This document shows, in pieces, positions 60,428 to 64,000 of a stretch of DNA of 64,000 bases. The notes under the pieces were generated by a model. It ran no database searches, was not told the origin of the DNA, and saw only the letters and a program-made list of their open reading frames with translations. The stretch is from Candidatus Multivorans sp. (GTDB lineage Bacteria > Acidobacteriota > Thermoanaerobaculia > Multivoradales > Multivoraceae): the NCBI GenBank assembly GCA_965224025.1, contig OZ245033.1, positions 2,624,001-2,688,000 of the forward strand, written 5' to 3'. The stretch's first letter is position 1, and every line of letters begins with the position of its first letter. The position numbers and the translations under genes are program-made.

Positions 60428-61237
60428 CTACTCCGACAGCAACGCCTTGATCGCCTCGGAAGGCTCGAAGACGCTCGGATCGACGTCGTTCCAGGTGACG
60501 GACTCGATGGTCTGGGTCATCTCCATACTCATGAAACTGATGACCACCCTGCTCGGGGCCATCAGACCGCCGAACTCCTTGTAGTCGCTCGAGCTGATCG
60601 TGACATCGACAGTGCCCATCTCATTCGTCTGTGTCGTCTCGATGCCGATCAGGAGGCCGGTGTCCTTGGCGAAGTAGTGCGAGGATTCGTTGCCGTCGGT
60701 GTCGACGAGGTCGAGCTGATAGGCCGCTTGGCCGTTCCACTCTGTTTCCCCGGCCGCCTGCTGCTCGGGGTAGATCTCGGCGTACTCCAACTCGGAGTAG
60801 AAGCGGGCGTCGCGCGCGGCGTCCTTCAGCATCTGGCCATCCAGGAGGCGCGTGCCCTGCATTGGATCGTCGGCCCAGCCGATCTCGCCGTTGTAGACCT
60901 CAAGGGTCTCGCCAAAGCCGGCCAGGTTGGTCGACTCGTAGTACTTGTCGGGCGCCATCTGGTAGATCGTCGTTTCACCGGAGACACCCATTGCGGGCAG
61001 GTCGAACGCGGCCTTGATTGTCGCGGATGTATGCGAGCGCACAGCTTCCTCGCCACCGATCGCTTCAACTAAGCGGGCGATGATCTTCTCTTCCTCTGTC
61101 AGCTCTCGGGGTGGTGGGACTTCTGCCGTCGCCTCTTGGGGTGGTGGATCTGCGTTGTAGGCAGAGCAGGCGCCGAGAATCAGACCGCAGCAGGCAAGTG
61201 CGAGCACGGTGCGGCGGCGAAGGGAATGGAAGGACAT
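60428..61237 (-). CDS. Lipoprotein, LolA-like/DUF620-like fold
   Basis: Lipobox LGAC, EAIGG, YFAKDTGLL and SDYKEFGG. Confidence 0.75.
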   Translation of the reverse strand: MSFHSLRRRTVLALACCGLILGACSAYNADPPPQEATAEVPPPRELTEEEKIIARLVEAIGGEEAVRSHTSATIKAAFDLPAMGVSGETTIYQMAPDKYYESTNLAGFGETLEVYNGEIGWADDPMQGTRLLDGQMLKDAARDARFYSELEYAEIYPEQQAAGETEWNGQAAYQLDLVDTDGNESSHYFAKDTGLLIGIETTQTNEMGTVDVTISSSDYKEFGGLMAPSRVVISFMSMEMTQTIESVTWNDVDPSVFEPSEAIKALLSE

Positions 61238-61411
61238 GAGCGGGTCTCCTTCGGAGGATGTGTTGGTTGTCGTACCTGACTACGTAGAAGCGGCGGCGCG
61301 GTTGCGGTGCGTTCCCTAGGAGTGTCCGCAGCGTTGTCGCTGCGCTGTCGCGCAGGGAACAGGCAGCGAGTAGCCAACGTTACAGCGGCGTCGTGGGTTC
61401 ATAGAGTTGGC

Positions 61412-61567
61412 CGCGCTGGGCAGCGAGGCCGCGCAGGCACTGGTGTGTTGGCGCCCGACTAGGAGTTTGGCCCGGACCGTGATCGGCGCTCTGACGCTGG
61501 CGGCGCGGCTTGTGTCGCGACCCCGTATGCAAGATTGAGCTTTTCGCCGCGGTCTCTGCCCAGCGCG
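61412..61567 (+). ncRNA. Candidate guide (bridge-like) RNA of IS110-B
   Basis: Perfect 12-bp stem 61412-23/61556-67 enclosing CTAGGAG (identical to the left junction) and ATGCAAG (identical to the right junction). Confidence 0.6.
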
Positions 61568-61600
61568 ACGATTGGATTCCACATCTACGGGAGGCAGGGG

Positions 61601-62920
61601 ATGGCAAAGCGGAAGGCGGAGCGTCTGGAAGTCGTTCACCCGGATTGCGCCGGTGTGGACGTAGGCAAGCGCAAGCACTACGTGGCGGTGGCCCCGTCGC
61701 GTTTCGAGCGGCCGGTGCGCAATTTCTCGTCGTTCACGGAGGACCTCGAGGCGATGGCCTCGTGGCTTCAGGAGTGCGGCGTGCGTGAGGTGGCGCTGGA
61801 GTCGACGGGGGTGTACTGGATTCCGGTGTTCGAGGTGCTGGACCGGGCGGGGTTCGAGGTGCATCTGGTGAATCCTCGGGCGACCAAGCAGGTGAGTGGC
61901 CGCAAGAGTGACGTTCTGGACTGCCAGTGGATCCGGCAGTTGATGAGCTACGGGCTCCTGCGCGGTGCGTTTCGCGCGCCGGACGAGTTGTGTCCGCTGC
62001 GTTCGTACACGCGGCAGCGCGCCCAGTTGGTCCGCGACCGCAGCCGCGCGGTGCAGCACATCCAGAAGGCTCTGGTGCAGATGAACGTGCAGTTGGACAA
62101 CGTGCTGAGCGACATCATGGGCAAGACCGGCCAGTTGATCGTGCGCGCGATCGTCGCCGGCGAGCGCGACGGCGCGGCGCTGGCCCGTCACCGGGACGGT
62201 CGCTGCAAGGCTGGTCCGGCTGTGATCGCGGCGAGTTTGCAAGGCAACTGGCGAGACGAGCACCTGTTCGCTCTGGGCCAGGCGCTGGCCCGCTACGACA
62301 TGCTGCAAGGCCAGATCGAGATGTGCGAGAAGCGCATCGACGCCGAGCTCGACGGTCTGGCCCAAGACGGCGTCGAGGACGCGCCGCCGCCCGGTTCGAA
62401 GGCGCGCGAGCGCGCCCTGCGGAAGCGGCTGCATCGCATGCTCGGCGTGGACCTGGTCGCCATTCCGACGGTCGGCGTCGAAACCGCGCTGACCTTCGCC
62501 GCTGAGATCGGCCCGGACCTGTCCCGGTTTCCCTCGCAGGGCAACTTCTGCTCGTGGCTGTGTCTGGCTCCACCGACCAACATCAGCGGCGACAAACGGC
62601 TGAACGGCCCTCCCGTGAAGCAGACCAACCGGGTCGGCCAGGCGCTGCGCCAAGCCGCCACCACAGCCCGCAACAGCAAGACCGCCATCGGAGCCTCTCA
62701 CCGCCGGCGTCTCCAGCACATGGAGAAGGCGAAGGCCATCAAGGCCACCGCTCATCAACTCGGCCGACTGATCTACGCCATGCTGACCCACGGCGAAGAG
62801 TACGTCGAGCGCGACCTCGCCGAAATGGAGGCCGTCCGACGCGAACGACAAATCAGAAACCTGCAGCGTCAGGCCCGCCGCCTGAATCTGGCTCTCGTGC
62901 CGACCGAACATGCCGCCTGA
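61601..62920 (+). CDS. IS110 family recombinase/transposase
   Basis: GVDVGK, ALESTGVYW, RKSDVLD and LAPPTNISG; GGGAGG RBS. Confidence 0.96.
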   Translation: MAKRKAERLEVVHPDCAGVDVGKRKHYVAVAPSRFERPVRNFSSFTEDLEAMASWLQECGVREVALESTGVYWIPVFEVLDRAGFEVHLVNPRATKQVSGRKSDVLDCQWIRQLMSYGLLRGAFRAPDELCPLRSYTRQRAQLVRDRSRAVQHIQKALVQMNVQLDNVLSDIMGKTGQLIVRAIVAGERDGAALARHRDGRCKAGPAVIAASLQGNWRDEHLFALGQALARYDMLQGQIEMCEKRIDAELDGLAQDGVEDAPPPGSKARERALRKRLHRMLGVDLVAIPTVGVETALTFAAEIGPDLSRFPSQGNFCSWLCLAPPTNISGDKRLNGPPVKQTNRVGQALRQAATTARNSKTAIGASHRRRLQHMEKAKAIKATAHQLGRLIYAMLTHGEEYVERDLAEMEAVRRERQIRNLQRQARRLNLALVPTEHAA

Positions 62921-62974
62921 ATCGCGCAACCTGCGCTGCCAACAAGGAACCCCTACCCGTTTGTTCCATGCAAG

Positions 62975-63020
62975 CGTGCGCGGCAGAACATGGGGTGCGC
63001 CGATTCTTCCTGCGGCGCAC
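62975..63020 (+). repeat. Dispersed repeat remnant (copy 6) abutting IS110-B, with a hairpin
   Basis: CGTGCGCGGCAGAACATGGGGTGCGCCG aligns with 38202-38228; hairpin 62995-63002/63013-63020. Confidence 0.7.
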
Positions 63021-63024
63021 GCAG

Positions 63025-64000
63025 CTAGCTTGCCCACTTCCTGGCTGCGGCCAGGGCCTCTTCCGACGGTGGCAGAGTGGGCTTCAGGCGCGCGGTCACG
63101 TTGAAGGGCTCCGTGTCGATCTCGTCGAGGCCCTGCTCGCCGGCGAGGACGGCGCGTTTCCATTCCTGCTGCTGGTCGTCGCGTTCCTGGAACTCGGGCA
63201 TCACTTCGCGCGCGAACAGCTCCAGGCTGCTCTTGATGTCCTCGTGGGTGTTCTTGCCGGCCTGGTTCAGCAGGATGACCTGGTCGACGTGGGCCCGTTC
63301 GAGTTCCAGCAGGCGCTCGCGGATCGTGGCGGGTGAGCCGATCAGTTCGCTGCGCGAGCGCTTCCGGCCTTCGGGCGTCTGCTTCCACTCCTGGTAGCGC
63401 TCCCAGAAGTTGTTCGACCTGGGCTCGAACGGACCTTCCTTGTTGTAGAGCTGCAGGGCGAACTGGAAGAACGTCCAGCCGTCGGCCTTGTGTTGCGCCT
63501 CTTCGTCGGTGGGCGCGCACATGAAGCCGCCGACCACGGCGAGGTTCGGGTTCGTCTGGTAGTCGCAGAGCCTCTGCTGGTCATGGGCGAAGGTGTTGTA
63601 GTACGCGTTGACCCAGGCGCGGGCGGAGTCGAGGTCGACGAACTTGAAGCACAGCGCGCCCATGCCGCGATGCGCGGCGTAGCGGATCGTTTCGAGTTGC
63701 GAGCAGGCGACCCAGAGCGGCGGGTGGGGCCGCTGCAGCGGCTTCGGAATCACGTTGCGCAGCGGGAAGTCGAAGTAGTGGCCGTGATACTCCCAGCCCT
63801 CTTCCCAGAACATCGGCAGGCAGGCCTGGACGGCCTCCTCCCACACGATCCGCTTGTCGCGGAAACTGCGGCCGAAGGGGTGGAGTTCGGTGACGCTCGA
63901 GCCCTCGCCGAGCCCGAGTTCGACGCGGCCGTTCGAAACCAGGTCGAGGGTCGACACCCGCTCGGCGACGCGGGCCGGGTGGTTCGTCGTCAACTGGACG
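63025..64000 (-). CDS. LLM-class flavin-dependent oxidoreductase (5' end outside the window)
   Basis: HPARVAERVSTLDLVSNGRVELGLG, PKPLQRPHPPLWVAC and LELFAREVMP. Confidence 0.92.
   Translation of the reverse strand, partial: VQLTTNHPARVAERVSTLDLVSNGRVELGLGEGSSVTELHPFGRSFRDKRIVWEEAVQACLPMFWEEGWEYHGHYFDFPLRNVIPKPLQRPHPPLWVACSQLETIRYAAHRGMGALCFKFVDLDSARAWVNAYYNTFAHDQQRLCDYQTNPNLAVVGGFMCAPTDEEAQHKADGWTFFQFALQLYNKEGPFEPRSNNFWERYQEWKQTPEGRKRSRSELIGSPATIRERLLELERAHVDQVILLNQAGKNTHEDIKSSLELFAREVMPEFQERDDQQQEWKRAVLAGEQGLDEIDTEPFNVTARLKPTLPPSEEALAAARKWAS

What the first reader, a model, noticed from the sequence alone, without database searches (positions are those of the whole stretch)
61311..62990. 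IS110-B: AG core, shared GTTCC motif and a possibly nested guide-RNA architecture
Both the target and donor left halves read GTTCCnTnnnAG, suggesting a protein-read GTTCC motif plus short RNA-read parts. Inside a 12-bp stem lie CTAGGAG (61459-65, candidate LTG) and ATGCAAG (61527-33, candidate LDG). Candidate right guides are ACGCT (61494-98, complementary to AGCGT) and GCACT (61437-41, pairing with AGTGT using one wobble). The latter lies 5' of the target guides, implying a donor loop enclosing the target loop, unlike IS621. The right-guide matches are short and could be chance.
Basis: partly seen in the sequence, partly recalled or inferred. Interest (0 to 1): 0.7.

Follow-up and report, generated by a model that had tools for sequence, protein, structure and literature searches.

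The report
Mirror-order bridge RNA in an IS110 element
This is an active IS110-family jumping gene whose guide RNA reads its insertion site and its own end by base pairing, with the guides laid out in the opposite order to the textbook IS621 element.

Summary
The element is real: 1652 bp (61323-62974), 14 same-length copies in the genome, an IS110-family transposase and a structured bridge RNA (about 61409-61570). CTAGGAG (61459-65) equals the left flank of all 14 copies, and ATGCAAG (61527-33) equals the right end. In 96 related elements the same two RNA blocks change together with flank and end, and the AG core is nearly invariant. The real right target guide is GCGCAGG (61431-37), 5' of the left guide in the same loop, and it pairs with the flank consensus CCTGCGC. 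The two bases after the left guide copy the element's first bases, like the IS621 handshake guide. I found no guide for the element's left-end (right donor) sequence. The two loops lie side by side inside a closing stem, so they are not nested. GTTCC is a subterminal inverted repeat of the donor and is not a target motif (1 of 14 flanks). The layout equals IS621 read on the opposite strand (AG = CT), the guide order reported for IS1111 seekRNAs. It is a variant of a known system and of moderate interest.

The parts
61316..61322 (+). Target left half plus core (CTAGG + AG); flank DNA, not part of the element
   Evidence: Identical in 14 of 14 copies while bases further upstream vary. 30 unoccupied CTAGGAG sites are followed directly by a close match to CCTGCGC, with a single AG.
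61323..62974 (+). IS110-family insertion sequence, 1652 bp
   Evidence: 14 copies of exactly 1652 bp at 99.5-100% identity.
61323..61324 (+). First bases of the element (right donor +1, +2), copied by the handshake bases of the RNA
   Evidence: RNA base after the left guide equals RD+1 in 88% of 65 elements against 43% permuted. The next base equals RD+2 in 55% against 29%. 0 of 2000 permutations reached either value.
61328..61343 (+). Left-end hairpin GCAGCG-TTGT-CGCTGC
   Evidence: Read from the sequence. Relatives carry different palindromes at the same place (listings); not tested statistically.
61355..61361 (+). Left copy of the subterminal inverted repeat (GGGAACA)
   Evidence: The reverse complement of the right-end 5-mer is present in the element's own left end in 50 of 52 elements, mostly at +33 to +40, against 16.0 +/- 2.8 permuted.
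61409..61570 (+). Bridge RNA gene: closing stem P1 (61409-20 with 61559-70) around a target-binding and a donor-binding stem-loop
   Evidence: RNAalifold consensus. 92% of cells paired against 81% shuffled, and 27 pairs with compensatory change against 16.2, 0 of 500 shuffles. The covariance model hits the window only here, 152 bits.
61431..61439 (+). Right target guide GCGCAGG (61431-37), then C61438 and A61439 facing the core
   Evidence: Complementary to the flank consensus CCTGCGC; 11 of 14 own flanks match at 5 or more of 7 positions. In relatives 2.81 Watson-Crick pairs of 7 against 1.81 +/- 0.13 permuted, 0 of 2000. The 4 elements with an AA core have TT in place of CA.
61459..61465 (+). 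Left target guide CTAGGAG (includes core AG)
61466..61467 (+). Handshake-like bases (TT) that copy the element's first bases
61489..61497 (+).
   Evidence: No covariation with right donor, right target or left target above permutation. This strand is a single A in 11 of 65 relatives.
61527..61533 (+). Left donor guide ATGCAAG (includes core AG)
   Evidence: Equals the right end 62968-74; covaries in relatives.
61601..62920 (+). Transposase gene, 439 aa
   Evidence: Pfam DEDD_Tnp_IS110 (1.1e-25) and Transposase_20 (2e-11). NCBIfam NF033542, 271 bits against a cut-off of 140.
62962..62967 (+). Right copy of the subterminal inverted repeat (TGTTCC)
   Evidence: GTT at -12 to -10 in 72 of 76 right ends; covaries with the left copy.
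62968..62974 (+). Left donor plus core (ATGCA + AG), right terminus of the element
62975..63021 (+). Target right half (CGTGCGC) at the start of a REP-like palindrome
   Evidence: Inverted repeat CGTGCGCGGCAG / CTGCGGCGCACG read. Paralogous unoccupied units exist elsewhere in the genome.

Best explanation
An active IS110-family insertion sequence that chooses its insertion site with a bridge RNA encoded between its left end and the transposase gene. The RNA has a closing stem and two internal loops in series. [quoted passage not shown] The 3' strand (CTAGG-AG) has the sequence of the left flank plus core, so it pairs with the bottom strand. Its next one or two bases copy the first bases of the element, as the IS621 handshake guide does. 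In the donor loop the 3' strand (ATGCA-AG) has the sequence of the element's right terminus. The 5' strand shows no guide. I infer that the left-end side of the donor is marked by a hairpin and a covarying subterminal inverted repeat (TGTTCC / GGAACA). Recombination occurs at the AG shared by target and donor. Insertion falls between CTAGGAG and CCTGCGC at the edge of REP-like palindromes. Read on the opposite strand, with core CT, the guide layout is that of IS621. So the RNA and transposase genes are inverted relative to the polarity of the recombination site. Shown here: copies, boundaries, RNA structure covariation, and guide-flank covariation. Inferred: that the RNA is made and bound, the chemistry, and the role of the repeat and hairpin.
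For: Fourteen 1652-bp copies share the flank CTAGGAG. Thirty unoccupied CTAGGAG sites are followed by a 5-6 of 7 match to CCTGCGC. The transposase carries the IS110 domains. RNA structure: 27 pairs with compensatory change against 16.2 shuffled, 0 of 500; slid controls give 35-44% paired against 92%. The model found 76 matches in 74 of 80 metagenomic relatives at 44-63% protein identity. Left guides: own 7-mer found in 61 of 82 and 59 of 66 elements against 1.4 and 1.1 with foreign guides. Flank heptamers that differ from the guide by one base (L041, L046, L072) show the heptamer is target DNA. Right target guide: 2.81 against 1.81 +/- 0.13 pairs of 7; shifting the register drops it to 1.8-1.9. 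One compensatory pair: TTGCAGG with flank CCTGC (L047) against TTGCACG with CGTGC (L049). Core-facing CA becomes TT in 4 of 4 AA-core elements. Handshake: 88% against 43%. A relic RNA gene in the same genome has ATGCAAG at the left-guide position and sits right after ...GTTCCATGCAAG. IS621 layout and handshake come from passages of PMC11208160 and PMC11208158.
Against: There is no evidence here that the RNA is transcribed. No RNA run was listed and no sigma-70 consensus promoter was found. Single-sequence folding is no better than shuffles (z 0.26 and -0.78). Right-flank pairing is only partial: 53%, 48%, 56%, 36% and 36% Watson-Crick at +1 to +5. Three of 14 own flanks match the guide at only 2-4 of 7 positions. 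No guide for the right donor was found, which departs from IS621; a discontinuous guide could have escaped my column-wise and right-anchored scans. The donor-loop handshake is weak (25% against 19%; 64 of 2000 permutations reach it). Left and right boundaries in relatives were located with the guides themselves, so the 100% identities are circular; the permuted-guide control is the valid test. Ten of the 31 first-set RNAs were dropped from the statistics by a string-matching failure.
Confidence: 0.85

Rival explanations
1. One reading: ACGCT (61494-98) is the right target guide, GCACT (61437-41) is the right donor guide, and the donor loop encloses the target loop.
For: In this one copy ACGCT is complementary to AG+CGT, and GCACT pairs with AG+TGT with one wobble.
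Against: The right flank begins CGT in only 1 of 14 own copies. The equivalent block in relatives gives 0.87 pairs of 3 against 0.81 +/- 0.07 permuted. Both pentamers lie in the paralogous conserved motif C-(A/G)-N-U that precedes the inner hairpin of each loop. The A that should pair with the element's first base is conserved, while that base is C in 35 and T in 19 of the matched pairs tallied for 65 elements. The consensus structure places the loops in series.
Confidence: 0.03
2. CTAGGAG is the element's own left terminus (element 61316-62974), and the internal copy at 61459-65 is a duplicated end rather than a guide.
For: All 14 copies carry CTAGGAG, so copy comparison alone cannot separate it from the element.
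Against: 122 CTAGGAG sites lack the element, and 30 of them continue directly into the same REP-like sequence found right of the element. One (contig C3) is a near-identical paralogue of this window's right flank. In relatives the flank heptamer sometimes differs from the guide by one base while the element is unchanged (L041, L046, L072).
Confidence: 0.03
3. The matching heptamers act as DNA sites, for example for recombination between element ends and internal copies, and no RNA guide is involved.
For: A relic at genome C1:4134229 looks like a deletion between a right-end ATGCAAG and an internal ATGCAAG. No transcript evidence was obtainable.
Against: Six helices with compensatory changes indicate selection on a folded single strand. 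The guide blocks sit exactly in the internal loops, as in the experimentally characterised IS621 and ISPpu10 RNAs (passages read).
Confidence: 0.05

Closest known systems
IS621 bridge RNA system (IS110 group; Durrant et al. 2024 PMC11208160, Hiraizumi et al. 2024 PMC11208158; passages read)
   Same: A DEDD/Tnp transposase with a non-coding RNA upstream of it in the left end. Two internal loops, one for the target and one for the donor. In each loop one strand pairs with the bottom strand and the other with the top strand, both including a 2-nt core. Handshake bases follow the core-proximal guide. The target is a REP-type repeat.
   Different: On the sense strand the core reads AG, not CT. The top-strand-binding guide is 5' and the bottom-strand-binding guide is 3' of the inner hairpin. 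The layout matches IS621 only when the sites are read on the opposite strand. One of the four guides (for the element's left end) is not detectable. A closing stem encloses both loops. There is a 5-9 bp subterminal repeat plus a left-end hairpin. The transposase is 439 aa and matches IS621 only weakly (E 6.3e-09). No junction promoter was recognisable.
IS1111-family seekRNAs (Siddiquee et al. 2024, PMC11187229; passages read)
   Same: The match complementary to the top strand lies 5' of the bottom-strand match. Subterminal inverted repeats are present. The terminal extension beyond the repeat is 7 bp on one side.
   Different: There the non-coding region is downstream of the transposase gene and the repeats are usually 11-13 bp. 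Here the RNA is upstream, the repeats are 5-9 bp, and the other extension is about 33 bp with a hairpin. Whether the transposase belongs to the IS1111 clade was not tested.
ISPpu10 of Pseudomonas putida (preprint 10.64898/2026.03.19.712850; passages read)
   Same: It targets the edge of a REP stem-loop. Its published target consensus ends ...CCCGCTCCTAC, whose reverse complement GTAGG-AG-CGGG resembles CTAGG-AG-CCTG here. The structured side of the target is read by the 5' guide.
   Different: ISPpu10 is described with a CT core on the sense strand, IS621 pairing logic and a junction promoter. The element here lies in the opposite orientation relative to an equivalent target.

Membership tests
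IS110-family RNA-guided insertion sequence | DEDD (RuvC-like) plus Tnp domain transposase | tested here: met
   PF01548 1.1e-25 and PF02371 2e-11. NF033542, 271 bits against cut-off 140.
IS110-family RNA-guided insertion sequence | No terminal inverted repeats; the same dinucleotide core at both junctions and once in the empty site | tested here: met
   AG at both junctions in 14 of 14 copies. Unoccupied sites read CTAGGAG plus flank with one AG.
IS110-family RNA-guided insertion sequence | Structured non-coding RNA with two internal loops in a non-coding end | tested here: met
IS110-family RNA-guided insertion sequence | Loop sequences covary with target and donor DNA | tested here: met
   Left target, left donor and right target guides and the target-loop handshake covary. 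The right donor guide was not found.
IS110-family RNA-guided insertion sequence | RNA is expressed and a circular intermediate forms | not testable with these tools
   All 24 listed runs are kept as contigs and none is on record as RNA. No end-to-start joint appeared in 4 runs, which contigs cannot exclude.
IS621-type bridge RNA | Left guides on the 5' strand and right guides on the 3' strand of each loop, with CT core on the sense strand | tested here: not met
   The order is reversed and the core is AG on the sense strand. The criterion is met only when the sites are read on the opposite strand.
IS621-type bridge RNA | Four guides, including a guide for each donor half | tested here: not met
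   No signal for the element's left-end half.
IS1111 group | Long non-coding region downstream of the transposase gene | tested here: not met
   278 nt upstream (61323-61600) against 54 nt downstream (62921-62974).
IS1111 group | Subterminal inverted repeats of about 11-13 bp | tested here: not met
   The longest repeat is 5-9 bp in 51 of 52 elements and 4 bp in one.
IS1111 group | Top-strand complement 5' of the bottom-strand match in the RNA | tested here: met
   the criterion is from PMC11187229.
Any Rfam family | Match at or near a family's gathering score | tested here: not met
   The best of 6 matches is 20.3 bits against a gathering score of 63.6, on the opposite strand.

The most novel reading that the evidence does not exclude
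This widespread clade (found from Pseudomonadales genomes to soil and sediment metagenomes) is a mirror-polarity, three-guide bridge system. The RNA and transposase genes are inverted relative to the recombination site. The donor's left-end half is not read by RNA at all; it would be marked by a hairpin plus a covarying subterminal repeat. That would make the clade an intermediate between the IS110 and IS1111 groups. Retargeting would then need changes in only three RNA blocks.
Probability: 0.35. Interest if true: 0.55.

Novelty: new variant of a known kind. Interest (0 to 1): 0.38.

Why it matters
Bridge RNA recombinases are being developed as programmable genome-writing tools, so natural variation in how the guides are arranged bears on their design. 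This clade shows that the IS621 guide logic can be wired in the opposite orientation relative to the RNA and transposase genes. It also suggests that one donor half may be recognised without a guide. It links an upstream-RNA element to the guide order reported for IS1111 elements. In addition, it supplies a covariance model and about 100 natural guide/site pairs, including relatives that have retargeted onto each other's right ends. A 2026 preprint (10.64898/2026.10.21.760802; section 2.4 read) already reports 86 bridge RNA models with structures that deviate from IS621. This clade may therefore already be catalogued there; I could not see its supplements.

Tried and rejected
Rfam scan of 61000-63300: nothing near a gathering score.

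Single-sequence folds: not better than shuffles.

The 85%-identical transposase copy at C1:2129247-2130563 has an unrelated upstream region, so it was of no use for the RNA.

A 5-mer complementarity scan with wobble suggested that the donor-loop 5' strand pairs with the left target (0.93). Strict Watson-Crick scoring with permutation removed it (1.56 against 1.38 +/- 0.10 at best). I put the first result down to U/G richness.

Search for a right donor guide: right-anchored tests at five registers (best 1.37 against 1.11 +/- 0.11), and column-by-position scans over the first 14 and first 48 left-end bases. These gave only the two handshake columns and isolated columns at noise level.

Empty site in relatives: 18 of 18 same-genus genomes hold the neighbouring gene, but the 7 loci examined lack the REP-like unit as well, so they give no simple empty site. 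Unoccupied paralogous sites in the own genome were used instead.

Promoter: no sigma-70 consensus in 61250-61650. An A/T-rich patch lies 4-9 nt before the closing stem in 95 relatives, but it would place the start inside the stem, so the transcription start is unresolved. By eye I saw no -10-like hexamer at the right spacing from the right-end TTGTTC across the junction.

Expression and circle junction: no RNA holder listed among 24 runs. Four runs, all contigs, showed no joint from 62974 back to 61323. This says nothing either way.

Placement of the transposase in the IS110 or IS1111 clade: not done, because no named reference sequences could be fetched. The plasmid tblastn gave only generic 'IS110 family transposase' names.

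Literature: two full-text searches, and passages or sections of PMC11208160, PMC11208158, PMC11187229, 10.64898/2026.03.19.712850, 10.1101/2024.06.21.599552, 10.64898/2026.08.14.744561 and 10.64898/2026.10.21.760802. In what I read, none described an upstream-RNA element with this guide order. Figures and supplements were not visible and may hold it.

Full report
WHAT IS THERE

The window holds a 439-aa open reading frame at 61601-62920. It carries the two IS110-family transposase domains and scores 271 bits against NCBIfam NF033542, whose cut-off is 140. The genome has 14 copies of the surrounding DNA, each exactly 1652 bp (61323-62974 in the window) and 99.5-100% identical.

All 14 left flanks end in CTAGGAG, and the bases upstream of that vary. 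After the shared right terminus ...TGTTCCATGCAAG, the right flanks read N-Y-T-G-C-G-C. Eleven of the 14 match CCTGCGC at 5 or more of 7 positions.

The genome holds 136 CTAGGAG sites. Fourteen are occupied. Thirty unoccupied ones continue directly into a 5-6 of 7 match to CCTGCGC and the same REP-like palindrome. One of these, on contig C3, is a near-identical paralogue of this window's right flank.

So CTAGGAG is target DNA. The element inserts between CTAGGAG and CCTGCGC, and AG is the core shared by target and element end.

THE RNA

I fetched 59 related loci from reference genomes and 80 from metagenomes. The roughly 170 nt upstream of the transposase gene align well, with sharply variable blocks.

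RNAalifold gives a closing stem with two stem-loops in series inside it, each with an internal loop. After I added one helix by hand, 92% of cells pair against 81% in shuffles. Twenty-seven of 43 pairs show compensatory change against 16.2 expected (0 of 500 shuffles). Sliding the partners gives 35-44% paired.

A covariance model built from 31 sequences found 76 matches in 74 of the 80 metagenomic loci. The six loci without a match have 33-164 nt of upstream sequence. The model hit the window only at 61404-61575, and it also hit two plasmid relatives.

No Rfam family matches.

THE GUIDES

The block after the inner hairpin of the first loop (window 61459-65, CTAGGAG) equals the left flank. The corresponding block of the second loop (61527-33, ATGCAAG) equals the right terminus.

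Across relatives the blocks change with the flanks. There are 59 different target 7-mers and 31 different donor 7-mers. An element's own 7-mer was found upstream in 61 of 82 elements, and at the right end in 59 of 66. With another element's guide the means were 1.4 and 1.1, with a maximum of 5.

The 100% identities are circular, because I located the boundaries with the guides themselves. One search is the valid control. The 14-copy comparison, the unoccupied sites and the one-base mismatched flanks (L041, L046, L072) are independent support.

The variable block on the 5' strand of the first loop (61431-37, GCGCAGG) is complementary to the right-flank consensus. In 75 guide/flank pairs it forms 2.81 Watson-Crick pairs of 7, against 1.81 +/- 0.13 when flanks are permuted (0 of 2000). 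Shifting the register by 1-3 bases drops it to 1.8-1.9. The signal lies at +1 to +5.

L047 (TTGCAGG, flank CCTGC) and L049 (TTGCACG, flank CGTGC) show a compensatory change.

The next two RNA bases are CA in 81 of 92 AG-core elements and TT in 4 of 4 AA-core elements. They therefore face the core.

The base after the left target guide equals the element's first base in 88% of 65 elements, against 43% permuted. The base after that equals the second base in 55%, against 29% (0 of 2000 for each). This is the behaviour of the IS621 handshake guide (PMC11208158, passages).

They show no covariation.

I found no guide for the element's left-end sequence in any register or column. In 11 of 65 relatives the 5' strand of the donor loop is a single A.

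GTTCC

The right-end pentamer at -12 to -8 begins GTT in 72 of 76 right ends. Its reverse complement is present in the element's own left end in 50 of 52 elements, mostly at +33 to +40, against 16.0 +/- 2.8 when permuted. The pairs seen include GTTCC/GGAAC, GTTTC/GAAAC, GTTAC/GTAAC and GTTTG/CAAAC.

It is therefore a subterminal inverted repeat of the donor. In targets it is rare: 1 of 14 own flanks and 3 of 66 related flanks. Those exceptions are elements whose target guide equals a relative's right terminus, so they insert at the ends of relatives.

HOW IT COMPARES

In IS621 the guide identical to the top strand (left target plus core) is 5' of the inner hairpin. The top-strand-binding guide plus handshake is 3' of it. 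Here the order is the reverse.

If the sites are read on the other strand, the core becomes CT. The 5' strand then becomes a left guide that ends at the core, and the 3' strand becomes a right guide followed by a handshake. That is exactly the IS621 scheme. So the RNA and transposase genes are inverted relative to the polarity of the site.

The seekRNA paper reports the same order, top-strand complement first, for IS1111-family elements and the opposite order for the IS110-type ISEc21 (PMC11187229, passages). Those elements carry the RNA downstream of the transposase gene and have repeats of 11-13 bp.

ISPpu10 is described with a CT core and IS621 logic. Its target is the reverse complement of something close to this one.

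The transposase matches IS621 only weakly (E 6.3e-09).

WHAT IS NOT SHOWN

Transcription, the transcription start, binding of the RNA by the transposase, the circular intermediate, the cleavage chemistry, and the role of the hairpin and repeat are all inferred.

VERDICT

The right target guide is relocated and a handshake is identified. The nested model and the shared-GTTCC idea are rejected. The mirror guide order and the missing fourth guide make it a variant worth a note rather than a new system.

Noticed in passing
Its family gives 13 strong PF01548 matches in the genome, with a roughly 410-nt non-coding region upstream of the gene. The covariance model for the element studied here does not hit it.
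   Followed up: partly
own genome C1:908921-909400 (locus L016): A roughly 97-bp miniature element has the left-end hairpin, both repeat copies and the terminus GTTCCATGCAAG, and is flanked by CTAGGAG. It is followed at once by a relic of a sister element whose target guide reads ATGCAAG. That relic is cut off by an IS1595-like transposase gene. Similar miniature elements lie at C1:640735 and C1:4163367 (minus strand).
   Followed up: partly
own genome C1:4134229-4134400 (locus L017): A bridge RNA relic lacks its first loop. The sequence runs from ...TTGTTCCATGCAAG straight into the bases that normally follow the target guide, as if a right end had recombined with the guide-encoding DNA.
   Followed up: no
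window 61316-61322 and 62975-63028: The REP-like palindrome next to the element is itself an insertion. Contigs in three public runs join ...TTCCCTAG directly to CTTGCCCAC..., so they lack both the element and the palindrome. The 7 same-genus loci examined also lack the unit. The unit is bounded by CTAG on both sides, so the target heptamer CTAGGAG straddles its left junction.
   Followed up: partly
loci L031, L032, L050, L053, L055, L056: Several relatives have a target guide equal to the right terminus of their own or a sister element (ATGCAAG, ATGAAAG, ATGCGAG). They are found head-to-tail behind such ends, which gives natural tandem or nested arrays.
   Followed up: partly
own genome C1:2129247-2130563, minus strand: A transposase gene 85% identical to the one here has the same right terminus but an unrelated upstream region without a bridge RNA. 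It is probably a truncated or rearranged copy.
   Followed up: partly
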